This document shows positions 52,723 through 59,520 of a stretch of DNA of 60,814 nt, in pieces. This stretch comes from Candidatus Buchananbacteria bacterium (lineage in GTDB: Bacteria > Patescibacteriota > Patescibacteriia > 2-01-FULL-39-33 > JBAYJR01). Both the position numbers and the translations under genes were made by a program. A model generated the notes under the pieces. That model ran no database searches and was not told the origin of the DNA. It saw only the letters and a program-made list of their open reading frames with translations. Position 1 is the first letter of the stretch, and each line of letters begins with the position of its first letter. The DNA lies in the NCBI GenBank assembly GCA_041665005.1, contig JBAYJR010000001.1, positions 70,727 to 131,540 on the forward strand, written 5' to 3'.

Positions 52723-53931
52723 ATGACGACAAAAAAATTTTATATTTTTGTAAGTTTTTTAATTACCCTTTGGCTATTAGGCGGGGTTTTTAGTCAGGGG
52801 CCGGTTTTGGCGCAAACGGTGACGGAGCAAATAACCGATCGTAAACAACGAATTGATGAAATTAATAAACAGATTGCCGAATATCAGGATAAAATTCGAC
52901 AAAAACAAGCGGAGTCCGTAAGTTTAAAAAACGAATTAAATATTTTGGGCAGTCAAATTAGTAAAACGCAGTTAGAAATTAAAGCCAAGCAAGAACAGGT
53001 TCAACAAACGCAATTAGAAATTCAACAACTACAACTGCAGTTAGAACAAAAAAATTTGGAAATTAGTAAAAACAAAGAAGATTTGGCTAATTTTTTAAGG
53101 CTAATTTTTAAATATCAAGAGCAGGGGACTTTGGCGGTCTTTTTTTCGCAAAATAATTTTTCGGATTTTTTTGATCAATTAAAATTTTCTCAAAATTTTC
53201 AAAGTAAATTACAGCAAGACCTGCAAAGCCTGGAGGAGTTGAAAAAAAATCTCGCTGCTAAACAAGCCGACTTGCAAGGTCATAAAATTAGCTTGGAAAA
53301 AATTTCGGATAAGCTAGAAGAAAATAAAGCGGTGTTGGATAATCAGAAAGGAGCAAAAAGCACTTTAATGAGTAAGGCTAAAAATTCGGAAAAAGAATTT
53401 CAAAAATTAGTGACCCAACTAAAAGCCGAGCAGGCGCAAATTAGTGCCGAGATTACCAGTTTAGAAAAAAAAGCACGGCAAAATTTAACTAGTCAGCAGG
53501 CTAAGCAAATTCAAGCCTTGGGTAATGTTTTGTTGCAGTGGCCGGTGCCCAGTCATACAGTGACGGCTTATTTTCACGATCCGGATTATCCGTTTCGTTA
53601 TGTTTATGAACATCCCGCGGTTGATATTAGAGCCGCCCAAGGAACGGCGATTACGGCGGCCGAAGCGGGTTATATTGGTACGGCTAAAAATGCTGGCTTG
53701 GGCTATTCTTACATTATGATTATTCACAACGAACAAATTTCTACGGTCTATGGGCATGTTTCAAAAATTTTGGTTAGCGAAGATGAGTTTGTTAAAAAAG
53801 GCCAGGTAATTGCCTTATCGGGCGGTTCGCCAGGTACCCCCGGAGCCGGTCGGATGACTTTTGGTCCACATTTACATTTTGAAGTACGCTATAACGGTAT
53901 TCCAGTCAATCCTTTAGATTATTTGCCATAG
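52723..53931 (+). CDS. coiled-coil M23 peptidase (EnvC/MepM-like)
   Basis: Signal/TM, long coiled coil, HPAVD, YGH, GPHLHFEVR...VNPLDYL. Confidence 0.9.
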   Translation: MTTKKFYIFVSFLITLWLLGGVFSQGPVLAQTVTEQITDRKQRIDEINKQIAEYQDKIRQKQAESVSLKNELNILGSQISKTQLEIKAKQEQVQQTQLEIQQLQLQLEQKNLEISKNKEDLANFLRLIFKYQEQGTLAVFFSQNNFSDFFDQLKFSQNFQSKLQQDLQSLEELKKNLAAKQADLQGHKISLEKISDKLEENKAVLDNQKGAKSTLMSKAKNSEKEFQKLVTQLKAEQAQISAEITSLEKKARQNLTSQQAKQIQALGNVLLQWPVPSHTVTAYFHDPDYPFRYVYEHPAVDIRAAQGTAITAAEAGYIGTAKNAGLGYSYIMIIHNEQISTVYGHVSKILVSEDEFVKKGQVIALSGGSPGTPGAGRMTFGPHLHFEVRYNGIPVNPLDYLP

Positions 53932-53935
53932 TTTT

Positions 53936-54496
53936 ATGGAGAGATTTGCTAAGGTGCAAACTGCGATTAAAAAAATTATAAAAAAATCTCCGTTGGAGTG
54001 GGATTTGTTGCATGCTCAAAAGACTTTATTTTGGTTATTAAAATTAAATCCCGAGGCTGATGAAATTCTTAAAATTGCCGCTTTGGCTCACGATCTAGAA
54101 CGAGGAGTGACCGGTATAACCGAAACCACGCATTTAAAAAATTTGAGTAACTTAAAAGAATTTAAACGGGAGCACGCCAAGCGGTCGTCCGAGATTATTG
54201 GCGCTTTGGTTAAGGCTTATGATTATTCGCCAGCTGAAATTACTAGATTAAAAAAAATTGTAGAAAACCACGAAGTGGGTGGTGATCAAGAAACTGACAT
54301 TCTAAGAGACGCAGACAGTATTGCTTATTTTGATCAACATATTGAAAAATATTATCAAAGGAATGGTGCGATTAAAACTAAAGATAAAATTAGCTTTATG
54401 TTTGATCGGGTTTCGGATCCGGCTAAACAAATAATTAAACAGTTAAAATATAAAAACTCAGAAGTTACGCAATTAGTCGCGGAAGTTGTTAGATAG
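53936..54496 (+). CDS. HD-domain protein (DUF4202-like)
   Basis: HAQKT, AALAHDLER, HAKRS, HE, LRDADSIAYF. Confidence 0.8.
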   Translation: MERFAKVQTAIKKIIKKSPLEWDLLHAQKTLFWLLKLNPEADEILKIAALAHDLERGVTGITETTHLKNLSNLKEFKREHAKRSSEIIGALVKAYDYSPAEITRLKKIVENHEVGGDQETDILRDADSIAYFDQHIEKYYQRNGAIKTKDKISFMFDRVSDPAKQIIKQLKYKNSEVTQLVAEVVR

Positions 54497-54586
54497 AGGA
54501 TTGAGTGACGGTTTAGTAAAAATGCTCTGTTTTGATGGGGTATTTTTTGTTTATTTTTTTAGGTTTCAGATTCGGGAATAATAAAC

Positions 54587-54615
54587 TTGACTTGCTAAAA
54601 ATATTTTGTTAAAGT
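54587..54615 (+). promoter_or_regulatory. sigma70-type promoter with no downstream same-strand ORF
   Basis: TTGACT-N17-TAAAGT with TG extension. Confidence 0.65.
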
Positions 54616-54621
54616 GTGTTT

Positions 54622-54924
54622 GTTGTATTCTGTTCGGTCATTATTCGTTATGGTGCTTGAGTAATGTAGAAGAGGCAACTTAGTCCTGTACCCTGGTTGG
54701 CCTATAGGATGAAGCGAAGACAACTCACCCAGCCTTTAGGGGGAAATTATAAAGGATATATCTAACTGATTAGGCTTAATTAGTTAGAAAGAAACGATCA
54801 TAAGCTTACCCGGCCTTTAGGGGGAAGCCATAAAGGATATGTCACCGGAGAGTGGTTCACCGGTGAAAGAAACTATGAACCTAAGCCTCCGATAAAAATT
54901 AATTTTTTATCGGGGGTTATTTTA
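54622..54924 (+). ncRNA. unidentified tandem-module structured RNA (~300 nt)
   Basis: Two ~75-nt modules 81 nt apart with conserved CCTTTA-GGGGGAA-TAAAGG-ATAT and AAGAAAC, and a sequence-variable hairpin. Confidence 0.65.
54886..54924 (+). terminator. intrinsic terminator closing the RNA
   Basis: CCTCCGATAAAAA/TTTTTATCGGGGG then TTATTTT. Confidence 0.78.
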
Positions 54925-54934
54925 TTTGGTAAAT

Positions 54935-54969
54935 AAAAAATTCACTGCCATCATCTGGTAGTGAATTTT
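54935..54969 (-). terminator. terminator of the convergent small gene
   Basis: AAAATTCACTGCC/GGTAGTGAATTTT with T-run on the - strand. Confidence 0.7.
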
Positions 54970-54976
54970 GTTAAAA

Positions 54977-55198
54977 TTAATGTTTGGAAATAAAATCAAT
55001 ATTTTCTACTTTAATTAAACCTAAAGGGCCAAGAATAAAGATACTGGGCCAAAAAATGGTAATTAGATAGTCAGGCCAAGTAGGGGATTCTTCAGGTAAA
55101 TATAATAATTCTTGCCAAAAATAAACAACGATTCTTAGATAAGCTATAATTACTAACCACAAAACAAAATTAGTCATTGACAAGCTAATTTGAATAAT
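54977..55198 (-). CDS. small 2-TM orphan protein; start uncertain (ATT 55198/55195 or ATG 55177)
   Basis: Promoter TTGACC-N17-TATAAT (55258-55230), AGGAGG followed by in-frame ATT ATT; hydrophobic ORF. Confidence 0.5.
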   Translation of the reverse strand: MIQISLSMTNFVLWLVIIAYLRIVVYFWQELLYLPEESPTWPDYLITIFWPSIFILGPLGLIKVENIDFISKH

Positions 55199-55340
55199 TA
55201 AGTCCTCCTGTTTTTTCAGGCGGGTGTTTATTATATCAAGGTTGAAGCTTTTGGTCAATTAGTTTGATTTGTGGATAAAATACTTAGGTTATTAAAGCGG
55301 ATAATTATGGGGTCTTGACAAGATTTTTAGCCTATGTTAA

Positions 55341-55370
55341 TATTTAGATATACATCTAAATATCTAAATA
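55341..55370 (+). promoter_or_regulatory. probable ArsR/SdpR operator overlapping the promoter
   Basis: Inverted repeat TATTTAGAT-atac-ATCTAAATA plus a third ATCTAAATA ending on the A of the ATG; TTGACA at 55315-55320. Confidence 0.7.
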
Positions 55371-55663
55371 TGTCTTTAACTAATACTTGGCAAGCGTTAG
55401 GGGATCAAAATCGCCGGCAAATCCTGGATTTGTTAAAAAAGGGGGATAAGGCCGTCGCCGAATTGGCAGTTCATTTTAAAATTACCCTACCAACCTTATC
55501 ACATCATTTAATGGTGTTAAAGGCGGCCAATTTAGTCACGGCTACCAGACAAGGTCAGCAGATTATTTATTCTTTAAATTTAAGCGTCTTTGAAGAGGTG
55601 GCGGCCGAAGTATATAATTATTTTAATAAATCTAAAAAATTAATTAAAAAAAAGTATGACTAA
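55370..55663 (+). CDS. ArsR/SmtB family repressor (SdpR-like)
   Basis: ALGDQNRRQILDLL, TLSHHLMVLK, RQGQQIIYSLN; start at ATG 55370. Confidence 0.9.
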   Translation: MSLTNTWQALGDQNRRQILDLLKKGDKAVAELAVHFKITLPTLSHHLMVLKAANLVTATRQGQQIIYSLNLSVFEEVAAEVYNYFNKSKKLIKKKYD

Positions 55664-56318
55664 TTATCTTAAAGCTTCCTGGCGGACGGAAATTATTCCC
55701 GTGTTGTTAATAATTTTAGCGGTGGCCAGCAGCTTTTACTTTTATGCCAATTTTCCAGAGCAGGTGCCAATCCATTGGAATGTTTATGGTCAAGTTGATG
55801 GTTGGTCTAGCCGAGCGTTTGGCGCCTTCTTTTTCCCCGCCTTGATTACCGGGATGTATTTATTATTTTTTATTTTTCCCTATTTAGATCCCAAAAAGGA
55901 ACGTTATGAACAATTTGCCAAGGCTTATCATATTTTTAAAGGAGCGATTGTTGCTTTTGTAGCGTTACTGTATTTTTATACTAGCTTAATTGCCTTGGGT
56001 CATCAATTGTTGCCAGTCAATGTGGCAGTGCCAGTTGGTATAGGGGTATTATTTATTATTATTGGCAACTATTTAGGCAAAGTAAAAGCTAATTGGTTTA
56101 TGGGTATTCGTACGCCGTGGACTTTATCTAGCGAAGAAGTTTGGAATAAAAGCAACCGCTTGGGTGGTAAAATCTTTATCATTATGGGTTTATTTTCGGT
56201 TTTAGGTTTTTGGTTGCCCTCAACCATCTTTTTTGGCATTTTTATCACCATGGTAATTGTGGGTTCGTTAATCCCGATAGTTTATTCTTATTGGTTGTGG
56301 CGCAAACTTAATCATTAA
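55656..56318 (+). CDS. SdpI family membrane immunity protein (DUF1648 + SdpI)
   Basis: PEQVPIHWN...VDG, NWFMGIRTPWTLSSEEVWNKSNR. Confidence 0.92.
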   Translation: MTNYLKASWRTEIIPVLLIILAVASSFYFYANFPEQVPIHWNVYGQVDGWSSRAFGAFFFPALITGMYLLFFIFPYLDPKKERYEQFAKAYHIFKGAIVAFVALLYFYTSLIALGHQLLPVNVAVPVGIGVLFIIIGNYLGKVKANWFMGIRTPWTLSSEEVWNKSNRLGGKIFIIMGLFSVLGFWLPSTIFFGIFITMVIVGSLIPIVYSYWLWRKLNH

Positions 56319-56432
56319 AAATTATTAGTAAGACGCTAAAAGGCGGCTGAAAAATCAGTCGCTTTTAGTTTGGAGTTGATCAAATTAATTAAGCTTGCTA
56401 TAATTGTTTTAACCAAGCGGAATTTATTTTTT

Positions 56433-57110
56433 ATGAAAATTTTGCCAGCCATTACTACGACCGGTCAAACTGATTGGCGAGAAAAAATTGTTGAGCTTAA
56501 CAAACTAGACCTAACCGAGGTCTGTTTTTTTCCGACGGGTTTAGCGTCAACGGAACGCCAAGAGGCTTATAAATTGCTTAAAAAATCTAAAATTAAAAGT
56601 ATTCCTTTTGTGCATTTACGTTCGGATATGTCGCCGGACGAAATTGAATTTTTAATTGCAAATTTTAAAACTAATATTTTTAATATTCACGCCATGAGTG
56701 AATGGCCACTACAGTATGATTTGAGTAAGTATTTAAGCCAAATGTATTTGGAAAATTCCGCTTACCCAATGCCAGAGGCCGAGGTTAAACAATTGGCGGG
56801 AGTTTGTTTGGATTATGCGCATCTAGAATCTCGCCGGTTGGAAGGCTCGCCGTTATATTCGGCGCAGTATCAATTATTTAAAAAATATCCCATCGGTTGC
56901 GCGCATATTAGCGCTTTATCTCAGCAAGCTTATTATAATCCAGAGCGAAAAGAAATTCAGCATGATTTACACCGCTATGCCAATTTAAACCAATTTGATT
57001 ATTTAGAGAGTTATAAAAATTTTTTAGCGCCTTTGGTTGCCATGGAATTAACCAATTCAATTAGTGAACAGTTGGTCGCTATAGAGTATATCAAAAAGAT
57101 ATTCAAATGA
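56433..57110 (+). CDS. hypothetical protein, possible TIM-barrel metalloenzyme
   Basis: FVHLRSD, FNIH, LEN, CLDYAH, AHIS, MEL spacing of metal-ligand residues. Confidence 0.55.
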   Translation: MKILPAITTTGQTDWREKIVELNKLDLTEVCFFPTGLASTERQEAYKLLKKSKIKSIPFVHLRSDMSPDEIEFLIANFKTNIFNIHAMSEWPLQYDLSKYLSQMYLENSAYPMPEAEVKQLAGVCLDYAHLESRRLEGSPLYSAQYQLFKKYPIGCAHISALSQQAYYNPERKEIQHDLHRYANLNQFDYLESYKNFLAPLVAMELTNSISEQLVAIEYIKKIFK

Positions 57111-57182
57111 TTTAGCAGCAAAGATTTGACAAAGTTTTTTGGTATGTGCTAAAGTAAAAATACCTTAACAATTACAACATTA

Positions 57183-57480
57183 ATGAGCAGGAATAGTAGG
57201 GAACGAGTTCGGTTTTAGCGAGCCAAGGTAGTTGCAAGCTTGGTACTAGAACGTTCTTGAACGCGCCTGTGAAATGACCTCGTGAATTAATTCAATAGCG
57301 GGGCCCGGCGGCGTCCGTAATCATGCGCTAACTGATGTCGTTTGGTTTTTAGAGCCAAAGCCTGAGTCAGTGAAAGTGATTAATCAATTCTTGGATTGGT
57401 TAATAACCGAGGTGGTACCGCGGGGTTAACTCCCGTCCTCTGTTGGCATTTTTTGCCAGTAGAGGACGGGATTTTTTATT
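57183..57480 (+). promoter_or_regulatory. T-box riboswitch, specifier CGC (Arg)
   Basis: GA motif AGGAATAGTAG, AGCGAG, GTTGCAA, GAA-CGC-G at 57259-57265, T-box GGTGGTACCGCG at 57411-57422, terminator TCCCGTCCTCT/AGAGGACGGGA+T6. Confidence 0.9.
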
Positions 57481-59164: not shown

Positions 59165-59520
59165 AAAAAAAGGAAGATCACTTGTTGGATCTTCCTTGAT
59201 AAATCGGGCAGGGAAGCCCTGAAACCGTATAGCACCGGATGTCTCCGTACTATTCCGGGGTCACTAATGGCCGTCCGGTCTTCCACTTGTTGACCGTAAT
59301 TTCTGGTCAACTTCGACTCCGACTAGCGGCTGATAAATCAGCCCCGTTCCACTAAACAGTTAGCTAATCATCAAAGTCTTCCGAATTGCTGTGCGTCACC
59401 ATTAGCCTTCAATAGGCATTGGAGCGGGGGACTTGAACCCCCACCATTTTTTTAAAAAAAGAAGTGGTTTTGGTCTGTTTTCAAAAGAGCAATTTGGCTG
59501 CGCCTGCCTCCATATCCCTG
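59165..59520 (-). ncRNA. unidentified structured RNA (~350 nt)
   Basis: Promoter TTGACA-N16-TAATAT (59556-59529); several perfect helices; terminator AGGAAGATC/GATCTTCCT+T7. Confidence 0.6.

What the first reader, a model, noticed from the sequence alone, without database searches (positions are those of the whole stretch)
54622..54924. Stand-alone RNA made of tandem modules with internal covariation
Seen: promoter, ~300 nt with no credible ORF, terminator, and no same-strand gene downstream. Module 1 (54722-54795) and module 2 (54802-54873) share ACCC(A/G)G-CCTTTA-GGGGGAA-nnnA-TAAAGG-ATAT(A/G)T-[hairpin]-AAGAAAC. The bracketed hairpin differs completely in sequence yet pairs in both (CTAACTGATTA/TAATTAGTTAG vs CACCGG/CCGGTG). 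A third, degenerate unit precedes them (CAACTT-AG-TCCTGTA/TATAGGA-T, 54677-54710), with CCCT in its loop complementary to the AGGG of the other loops. ACCC could also pseudoknot with the G5 loop. Inference: a selected RNA structure (multivalent protein sponge, tandem aptamer or processed repeat RNA) matching no riboswitch or ribozyme consensus I know. This is the strongest candidate for something undescribed.
Basis: partly seen in the sequence, partly recalled or inferred. Interest (0 to 1): 0.8.

Follow-up and report, generated by a model that had tools for sequence, protein, structure and literature searches.

The report
Orphan two-module small RNA candidate
A tiny-genome groundwater bacterium (Candidatus Buchananbacteria) has a roughly 305-base unit with its own promoter and terminator, no gene inside and two copies of an RNA-like module; it is probably a lineage-specific small RNA, but I found no relative and no transcript data, so its reality and function stay unproven.

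Summary
A sigma-70-type promoter with an extended -10 (54587-54615) and a 15-bp intrinsic terminator (54884-54918) frame about 305 nt with no credible ORF. No gene is called there on the public contig.

Two tandem modules share a core (31 of 36 nt over 54727-54762) and an identical GAAAGAAAC tail. Between core and tail each has a hairpin of unrelated sequence: the two closing pairs are the same and the next five pairs differ on both sides. ACCC could pair with the G5 loop as an H-type pseudoknot, which I could not test. A covariance model of the core does not detect the proposed third unit.

Rfam gives no hit. I found no homolog in GTDB species genomes, JGI metagenomes, IMG/VR, phages, plasmids or the source metagenome. 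The lineage is poorly sampled: the best GltX relatives are 72% and 65% identical, on 3-kb contigs. The neighbouring small ORF is also an orphan. No RNA-seq run is available.

The internal evidence therefore comes from one paralogous pair only.

Best reading (confidence 0.5): a real, lineage-specific, stand-alone structured sRNA that offers two identical recognition modules to a protein or RNA partner. Main rival: decaying duplicated intergenic DNA.

The parts
54519..54560 (+). Weak A/U-rich hairpin plus U-run after the DUF4202 gene; likely its terminator, which separates it from the RNA unit
   Evidence: Centroid fold of 54490-54565: 12-pair hairpin followed by UUGUUUAUUUUUUU
54587..54615 (+). 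Promoter: TTGACT, 17-nt spacer, TAAAGT with a TG extended -10
   Evidence: 9 of 12 matches, TG present; sequence
54622..54928 (+). Predicted transcript, about 305 nt, with no credible ORF
   Evidence: inferred from the promoter and terminator, not observed
54639..54666 (+). 5' hairpin H0 (9 bp)
   Evidence: -6.4 kcal/mol
54683..54710 (+). Hairpin M0, the 'degenerate third unit'. Its stem UCCUGUA/UAUAGGA resembles P1; its loop contains ACCCUGG
   Evidence: -9.4 kcal/mol; not recognised by core model R1
54727..54762 (+). Module 1 core: ACCC-AG-CCUUUA(P1 5')-GGGGGAAAUUA-UAAAGG(P1 3')-AUAUAUC
   Evidence: (59.9 bits)
54761..54788 (+). Variable hairpin V1 (12 bp including one G-U, GGCU loop)
   Evidence: I7; -11.0 kcal/mol
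54787..54795 (+). Purine-rich tail GAAAGAAAC of module 1
   Evidence: (D4)
54808..54843 (+). Module 2 core: ACCC-GG-CCUUUA-GGGGGAAGCCA-UAAAGG-AUAUGUC
   Evidence: (59.0 bits)
54842..54866 (+). Variable hairpin V2 (7 bp plus 2 inner pairs)
   Evidence: I13; -11.5 kcal/mol
54865..54873 (+). Purine-rich tail GAAAGAAAC of module 2
   Evidence: (D4)
54884..54918 (+). Intrinsic terminator (15 bp), followed by a T-run to about 54928
   Evidence: -19.2 kcal/mol
54937..54969 (.). Second hairpin (14 bp) with T-runs on both strands; terminator of the convergent small ORF and possible back-up terminator for the RNA
   Evidence: I1; -16.5 kcal/mol
54977..55177 (-). Convergent orphan 66-aa hydrophobic ORF (93 aa from an upstream TTG) with a strong promoter at 55258-55230. 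A neighbour, not a shown partner

Best explanation
The stretch is most likely a lineage-specific, independently transcribed small non-coding RNA of about 305 nt. It has a 5' domain of two hairpins and then two tandem modules of about 80 nt.

Each module has these parts, in order:
- an invariant ACCC;
- an invariant 6-bp stem (CCUUUA/UAAAGG);
- an invariant purine-rich loop (GGGGGAA);
- a spacer hairpin that is free in sequence but always paired;
- an invariant single-stranded tail (GAAAGAAAC).

Stem, loop and tail are kept letter for letter while the spacer hairpin keeps only its pairing. From this I infer that the modules are read by sequence. The RNA would offer two identical docking sites to one partner. 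The likeliest partner is a dimeric or multimeric RNA-binding protein that it titrates or scaffolds. Less likely, it carries duplicated seed regions for base pairing.

ACCC may pair with the G-run to make an H-type pseudoknot (3 bp, a 2-nt L1, 6 bp, and an A-rich L3).

Shown: the sequence anatomy, the promoter-like and terminator-like signals, the absence of an ORF, and single-copy status. Inferred: transcription, the fold, the pseudoknot, the partner and any function.
For: - Promoter with extended -10 and a strong terminator frame the unit.
- The upstream gene has its own terminator-like hairpin.
- No gene is called in the 480-nt gap of a compact genome, and only ORFs of 25 aa or fewer exist there.
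- In the one frame that spans the core, all five differences between the copies change the amino acid, so there is no coding signature (my own translation).
- GC is about 0.41 inside the unit against 0.25-0.30 in the flanking intergenic DNA.
- Conservation is uneven: 31 of 36 core positions and 9 of 9 tail positions are identical, while the hairpin between them is unalignable yet fully paired in both copies. Five consecutive pairs differ on both sides.
- The element is not a dispersed repeat. In 1.66 Gb of contigs from the source metagenome, only this locus matches, and the aligner was sensitive enough to pick up module 2 when module 1 was the query.
- No Rfam family accounts for it.
Against: - No homolog was found anywhere: two pattern scans of 185,579 species genomes, one scan of JGI metagenomes, three scans of IMG/VR, blastn against phages and plasmids, and a covariance-model search of 18 Patescibacteria loci.
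- Where synteny is conserved, relatives carry other genes in this position.
- There is no expression evidence.
- Thermodynamic support is modest (z from -1.8 to -2.9), and most of the stability comes from the two variable hairpins and the terminator.
- P1 and the pseudoknot are invariant between the copies, so they have no covariation.
- The adjacent small ORF is also an orphan. The whole 0.8-kb segment could therefore be young or decaying DNA.
Confidence: 0.5

Rival explanations
1. Non-functional intergenic DNA. A local tandem duplication of about 80 bp sits in a young or decaying lineage-specific insert, together with the orphan ORF. Its promoter-like and terminator-like sequences would be leftovers or chance, and the two hairpins would be independently acquired palindromes.
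For: - No homolog of the RNA or of the neighbouring 66/93-aa ORF was found in any collection.
- Relatives that share the WecG-GltX-M23 synteny lack the DUF4202 + RNA + ORF segment.
- M0 shows what a module may look like without a V hairpin.
- Fold z-scores are modest.
Against: - Under neutral decay, divergence should be even. Instead, core and tail are nearly identical while the sequence between them is saturated.
- Both hairpins sit at exactly the same position, with the same two closing pairs.
- Neither hairpin recurs anywhere else in the source metagenome, which argues against mobile mini-hairpins.
- The framing by an extended -10 promoter and a 15-bp terminator is clean.
Confidence: 0.28
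2. Tandem aptamer (riboswitch-like) RNA. Its terminator is the expression platform, and read-through produces an antisense RNA across the convergent small membrane-protein gene next to the SdpR/SdpI pair.
For: - The tandem, similar but not identical modules have a conserved core and a variable peripheral stem, which resembles tandem aptamers.
- The geometry is compatible with a pseudoknot.
- The terminator lies directly after module 2.
- The convergent gene begins about 50 nt beyond the terminator.
Against: - No aptamer family matches.
- I found no alternative antiterminator pairing.
- A second hairpin, at 54937-54969, would also stop read-through.
- The target ORF is an orphan of doubtful standing.
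- There are no homologs in which to look for a conserved binding pocket.
Confidence: 0.07
3. Toxin-less (orphan) or unconventional RNA antitoxin array of the type III kind. The tandem pseudoknot units would be cut at the A-rich GAAAGAAAC sites by an endoribonuclease toxin encoded elsewhere.
For: - The layout of promoter, tandem pseudoknot-capable repeats and terminator matches the type III scheme (PMC3401426).
- The A-rich invariant tails could be cleavage sites.
- Orphan arrays were noted elsewhere in this scan (e1-2867957).
Against: - No toxin gene follows on the same strand.
- The neighbours have no PADLOC hit and only DUF4202/HD in Pfam.
- The units are about 80 nt with a variable hairpin, and only two are present.
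Confidence: 0.04
4. DNA-level element. The inverted repeats CCTTTA-N11-TAAAGG, 81 bp apart, would be operators or iterons for a dimeric DNA-binding protein.
For: - Two identical 6-N11-6 palindromes lie about eight helical turns apart, and a related third palindrome lies upstream.
- The stem sequence is invariant, as expected if the sequence rather than the pairing is read.
Against: - The conserved flanks are asymmetric (ACCCRG on the 5' side, ATATRT and GAAAGAAAC on the 3' side), which fits a strand-specific RNA.
- The sites lie inside a promoter-to-terminator unit with no gene to regulate.
- The adjacent ArsR gene has its own, different palindrome at its promoter.
Confidence: 0.05
5. Small-peptide genes: MKRRQLTQPLGGNYKGYI (54709-54765) and MSPESGSPVKETMNLSLR (54839-54895).
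For: Two 18-codon ATG ORFs exist.
Against: - The two ORFs are in different positions relative to the repeat, and module 1 has no start where module 2 has one.
- AGGA abuts the ATG, leaving only 0-2 nt of spacing.
- All differences between the repeats are non-synonymous in the shared frame.
- No gene is called there.
Confidence: 0.04

Closest known systems
Protein-sequestering sRNAs with repeated motifs (CsrB/RsmY/RsmZ for CsrA; CrcZ for Hfq/Crc); comparison from my own knowledge
   Same: A stand-alone sRNA gene with its own promoter and terminator. The same short sequence motif is presented several times on hairpins or single strands. Hairpin bodies are free to vary.
   Different: Only two (perhaps three) modules are present. 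GGA is not enriched: 6 are found and about 4.4 expected from base composition (my estimate). No Rfam match.
Type III toxin-antitoxin antitoxin RNAs (ToxI, CptI, TenpI; PMC3401426)
   Same: Promoter, tandem repeats able to form pseudoknots, then a terminator. The repeats carry A-rich stretches.
   Different: No toxin gene is present. The units are about 80 nt rather than 36 nt as in ToxI, only two are present, and they enclose a variable hairpin.
STAXI motif (Rfam RF01728; Weinberg et al. 2010, PMC2864571)
   Same: A small pseudoknot unit repeated two or three times in tandem, of unknown function.
   Different: No hit to RF01728 even at E<=10. STAXI is enterobacterial and lies near genes that handle DNA; this element is in a CPR bacterium between a DUF4202 gene and an orphan ORF.
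Tandem riboswitch aptamers (glycine riboswitch, tandem glnA RNAs)
   Same: Two similar aptamer-like domains in series, each with a conserved core and variable peripheral stems, followed by a terminator.
   Different: No downstream gene in cis. No match to any aptamer family. No evidence for a ligand.
Orphan pseudoknotted sRNA genes noted in other Patescibacteria by this scan (e1-863330, e1-830947)
   Same: CPR genomes, promoter-to-terminator units of about 300 nt, no Rfam match, and predictions rich in pseudoknots.
   Different: No sequence similarity was detected by the scan's index. Those RNAs are described as GC-rich with a portable 3' double-pseudoknot module. I could not compare sequences.

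Membership tests
Any Rfam 15 family | Score at or above the family's gathering threshold | tested here: not met
   The window's only gathering-level hit is the T-box at 57174-57443. In the permissive scan of 54450-55050 the best match is 25.9 bits against a gathering score of 60 (ncr1175), and it covers only the two terminator hairpins.
Type III toxin-antitoxin (ToxIN/CptIN/TenpIN) | Tandem array of short, near-identical repeats | tested here: not met
   Two units with 78-81-nt spacing, 85% identical over a 39-nt core and unalignable in the hairpin. The paradigm ToxI has 5.5 repeats of 36 nt.
Type III toxin-antitoxin (ToxIN/CptIN/TenpIN) | Terminator after the repeats, then a toxin gene on the same strand | tested here: not met
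   The terminator is present. The next gene is convergent and is an orphan. The neighbours have no PADLOC hit.
Tandem riboswitch | Recognised aptamer fold and a regulated gene downstream in cis | tested here: not met
   No aptamer family matches. No same-strand gene follows before the ArsR gene, which has its own promoter.
CsrB/Rsm-type sponge | Many GGA motifs in hairpin loops, and csrA present in the genome | tested here: inconclusive
   Six GGA in about 300 nt against about 4.4 expected from base composition (my count; composition).
STAXI motif | Match to RF01728 and association with DNA-handling genes | tested here: not met
   Not among the matches at E<=10. The neighbours are DUF4202, an orphan ORF and SdpR/SdpI.
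CRISPR array | Identical direct repeats separated by unique, non-palindromic spacers | tested here: not met
   The repeats are 85% identical, only two are present, and the 'spacers' are perfect hairpins flanked by a second conserved block.
Type I toxin-antitoxin (convergent sRNA plus small hydrophobic ORF) | Extended complementarity between the sRNA and the toxin mRNA | tested here: not met
   Duplex energy of the sRNA body with the ORF's mRNA is -79.0 kcal/mol against a shuffle mean of -79.6 +/- 7.6 (22 of 40 shuffles as good). The two units end at separate adjacent terminators.
Dispersed repeat / MITE / mobile hairpin | Several copies in the genome | tested here: not met
   Only this locus is found in the contigs of the source metagenome at 80% likeness or more and in the 60.8-kb window. 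The rest of the genome could not be searched directly.

The most novel reading that the evidence does not exclude
The modules are a new class of compact RNA domain in CPR bacteria: an H-type pseudoknot, a variable hairpin and a purine tail. The domain would be a tandem ligand- or protein-sensing aptamer. Its occupancy would set termination at 54884-54918, and so control antisense read-through into the adjacent orphan membrane-peptide gene beside the SdpR/SdpI immunity pair. This would make it a stand-alone riboregulator of a toxin/immunity-like locus.
Probability: 0.06. Interest if true: 0.7.

Novelty: new member of a known kind. Interest (0 to 1): 0.3.

Why it matters
CPR/Patescibacteria have tiny genomes, and my two literature searches surfaced no paper on small RNAs of this group. 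A validated stand-alone RNA with duplicated recognition modules would add to a short list of candidates and would point to an RNA-binding partner in these organisms. As it stands, this is a single-genome candidate without comparative or expression support. Its main value is as a documented lead to revisit when closer Buchananbacteria genomes or aquifer metatranscriptomes appear.

Tried and rejected
1. Rfam at gathering score and at E<=10: nothing relevant.

3. Pattern scans.
- A stem-agnostic module pattern in genome contigs gave 0 hits.
- A tandem ACCC-N8-GGGGGAA pattern gave 67 hits. All were unrelated CCCCC/GGGGG hairpin repeats, collagen-like repeats or CRISPR-like repeats.
- A stem-and-loop pattern in metagenome contigs gave 8 hits. 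Five were MBOAT genes (the motif reads PLGGxxKG in frame) and three were chance.
- Three viral-contig scans gave chance hits or a conserved phage coding sequence.

4. Synteny.
- DUF4202 homologs (57% identity or less) have different neighbours.
- The nearest GltX relatives (72% and 65%) sit on contigs of 3.7 and 3.2 kb that end inside the M23 gene.
- More distant relatives keep WecG-GltX-M23 but follow it with a small Cys-rich gene and XerC.

6. Source metagenome laid at 80% likeness: only the organism's own contig matched.

7. blastn against phages and plasmids: nothing.

8. DGR template idea: no similarity of the region to any other part of the window, apart from one chance 31-nt match inside a coding region.

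9. Antisense pairing with the convergent ORF's mRNA: no better than shuffles.

10. Pseudogene or peptide reading: rejected.

11. A covariance model of whole modules could not be built cleanly, because MAFFT misaligns the variable hairpins. I used a 40-nt core model instead.

Full report
**What is there.** The stretch lies in a 480-nt gap between a DUF4202/HD-family gene (53936-54496, +) and a convergent small ORF (54977-55177, -). Earlier notes of this scan assign the genome to Candidatus Buchananbacteria (Patescibacteria/CPR).

The DUF4202 gene is followed by its own weak A/U-rich hairpin and U-run (54519-54560). Next comes a promoter: TTGACT at 54587-54592, a 17-nt spacer, and TGtTAAAGT with the -10 at 54610-54615. 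A 15-bp terminator follows at 54884-54918 (-19.2 kcal/mol) with a T-run. The predicted RNA therefore runs from about 54622 to about 54928, roughly 305 nt.

A second hairpin at 54937-54969 (-16.5 kcal/mol) has T-runs on both strands. It terminates the convergent ORF.

No gene was called in 54497-54976 on the public contig. The only plus-strand ORFs are 25 codons or fewer and have poor initiation contexts. GC is about 0.41 in the unit and 0.25-0.30 in the neighbouring intergenic DNA.

**The modules.** A 39-nt block (54724-54762 and 54805-54843) is 85% identical. A second block, GAAAGAAAC, is identical in both copies (54787 and 54865). The 28-nt core motif with three free positions occurs exactly twice in 60.8 kb and never in 100 shuffles.

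Each module reads: ACCC, R, G, CCUUUA, GGGGGAA-NNN-A, UAAAGG, AUAURU, [hairpin], AAAGAAAC.

The bracketed hairpins are a 12-bp stem with a GGCU loop (54761-54788, -11.0 kcal/mol) and a 7-bp stem (54842-54866, -11.5 kcal/mol). They share the two closing pairs (U-A, C-G), and the next five pairs differ on both sides.

Over the core 54727-54762, 31 of 36 positions are identical. All five differences are transitions from A/T in module 1 to G/C in module 2. Two of them (UU to CC at 54747-54748) keep the ability to pair with the G-run, as G-U in one copy and G-C in the other. This gives P1 of module 2 two extra pairs (-7.1 against -3.1 kcal/mol).

**Limits of the structural evidence.**
- P1 is identical in both copies, so it offers no covariation.
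- P1 is weak on its own and competes with CCC/GGG pairing (-4.2 and -5.0 kcal/mol). In the full-length MFE fold it also competes with pairing between the two modules.
- The ACCC/G-run pairing combined with P1 has the geometry of an H-type pseudoknot: 3 bp, a 2-nt L1, 6 bp and an A-rich L3. That is my inference. ViennaRNA does not model pseudoknots, and the nucleotides involved never vary.
- Fold z-scores are -2.9 for the whole RNA, -2.1 for both modules, -2.0 and -1.8 for single modules, and -1.1 for the 5' domain.
- The 'third unit' (54683-54710) is a real hairpin (-9.4 kcal/mol). Its stem differs from P1 by one U-A to G-U change, and purine-rich boxes resembling the tail flank it. A covariance model of the 40-nt core scores the two modules at 59.9 and 59.0 bits and does not report this unit at E<=10.

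**Known families.** Rfam 15 gives no hit at gathering score other than a T-box 2.3 kb away. A permissive scan yields only chance-level matches, nearly all centred on the terminator region; the one match lying within a module is Hrs10 at 11.8 bits against a gathering score of 108. ARAGORN finds nothing in the window.

**Search for relatives.** The substitutes all came back negative.
- *Pattern scans.* Two scans of 185,579 species genomes gave 0 hits and 67 unrelated repeat hits. One scan of JGI metagenomes gave 8 hits: five MBOAT genes, whose PLGGxxKG motif happens to spell the core, and three chance matches. Three IMG/VR scans were negative.
- *blastn.* Nothing relevant in phages or plasmids.
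- *Covariance model.* The core model found nothing in 18 Patescibacteria loci.
- *Source metagenome.* Laying its 1.66 Gb of contigs on the locus at 80% likeness recovered only the organism's own contig. With module 1 alone as the query, module 2 was picked up and nothing else. The element is therefore single-locus and not a dispersed repeat.

The lineage is poorly sampled. The best DUF4202 homologs are 57% identical at most and have different neighbours. The two nearest GltX relatives (72% and 65%) sit on contigs of 3.7 and 3.2 kb that stop inside the M23 peptidase gene. More distant relatives keep WecG-GltX-M23 but continue with a small Cys-rich gene and XerC instead of DUF4202 plus this unit.

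The convergent 66/93-aa ORF has no homolog among 5.8 billion clustered proteins or 1.84 billion representatives, and no Pfam or PADLOC hit. Only one DNA run and no RNA run hold the sequence.

**Interpretation.** The case for a real RNA gene rests on four points.
- The framing by promoter and terminator is clean.
- There is no coding signal. In the single frame that spans the core, all five differences are non-synonymous.
- Non-coding space is costly in a compact genome.
- Above all, conservation between the two copies is strikingly uneven: the core and tail are almost identical, while the hairpin between them has been replaced entirely yet stays perfectly paired, in the same place and with the same closing pairs.

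The stem, loop and tail are kept letter for letter while the spacer hairpin keeps only its pairing. I therefore favour sequence-specific recognition of two equivalent sites, by a dimeric or multimeric RNA-binding protein (a sponge or scaffold) or, less likely, by target RNAs.

I put 0.5 on 'genuine stand-alone structured sRNA with two recognition modules'. The specific partner is undetermined.

**Rivals.**
- *Decaying lineage-specific DNA with a local duplication (0.28).* This is the main rival. It is supported by the complete lack of homologs for both the RNA and the neighbouring ORF.
- *Tandem aptamer controlling antisense read-through (0.07).*
- *Orphan type III-like antitoxin (0.04).* No toxin gene is present, and the unit size and copy number are wrong.
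- *DNA operators (0.05).*
- *Micro-peptides (0.04).*
- *Type I toxin-antitoxin.* Not supported, because the sRNA body is no more complementary to the ORF's mRNA than shuffled sequences are.

**Comparison and novelty.** In function it most resembles repeated-motif sponge sRNAs. In form it most resembles tandem pseudoknot arrays (type III antitoxins, STAXI). It fails the tested defining features of each (see the membership table).

If real, it is one more lineage-specific bacterial sRNA, so I class it as a new member of a known kind. It would found its own family, which at present has a single member.

Neither a mechanism nor selection can be demonstrated, so interest is modest (0.3). The bolder reading, a new modular aptamer regulating the adjacent toxin/immunity-like locus, is not excluded, but I give it about 6%.

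Noticed in passing
window 54733-54755 and 54814-54836; L074, L076, L078, L079, L081: In one frame the module core reads PLGG(N/S)xKG, the conserved motif of MBOAT/DltB/AlgI acyltransferases. DNA pattern scans for the core therefore return MBOAT genes. This is a coincidence, not homology: nothing beyond the 8 residues matches, and stop codons flank it.
   Followed up: yes
window 54977-55258 (-): A small hydrophobic ORF (66 aa, or 93 aa from an upstream TTG) has a near-consensus promoter (TTGACC, 17-nt spacer, TATAAT, TG; 11 of 12 matches). An AGGAGG sits inside a 5'-UTR hairpin. It has no homolog in any protein collection. It lies head-to-head with an ArsR(SdpR-like)/SdpI pair (55334-56318), which raises the idea of a peptide-and-immunity locus.
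   Followed up: partly
window 55270-55278: TGTGGATAA, a perfect DnaA-box consensus (reverse complement of TTATCCACA), lies between the small ORF's promoter and the ArsR promoter. It is a single box, and there is no GC-skew turn in 53000-56500.
   Followed up: no
window 54727-54762 vs 54808-54843: All five differences between the two cores are transitions from A/T (module 1) to G/C (module 2). Likewise, the variable hairpin of module 1 is AT-rich and that of module 2 is GC-rich.
   Followed up: partly
L090 11262-11390; L091 11604-11822: In two Patescibacteria relatives, the M23 peptidase gene is followed by a small Cys-rich protein gene (MDKCAKCEMPIDEE...CCSCG..GCGCGC; the L091 version has an acidic tail) with its own terminator. 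The window has DUF4202 and the RNA unit in that position.
   Followed up: no
L013, L015, L040, L070 (one Candidatus Magasanikiibacteriota MAG); also L012, L016, L020, L021, L027, L047, L069 and others: The tandem ACCC...GGGGGAA scan turned up multi-copy hairpin repeats of the form CCCCC(T)nACCCCC-NNNN-GGGGGGAA in many phyla. In the Magasanikiibacteriota MAG they are joined to a conserved CGCTAAAGCTACGGCGAGAC box on at least four contigs.
   Followed up: no
L092-L127 (IMG/VR): About 30 viral contigs share a highly conserved stretch, ...GGGGGAATACCTAAAGGATATTGCATAGT..., apparently from one widespread phage gene. It is unrelated to the finding.
   Followed up: no
window 59165-59520 (-): Another first-stage note calls this a tRNA-like structured RNA near an integrase. 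ARAGORN reports no tRNA or tmRNA anywhere in the window, and Rfam has no gathering-level hit there.
   Followed up: partly
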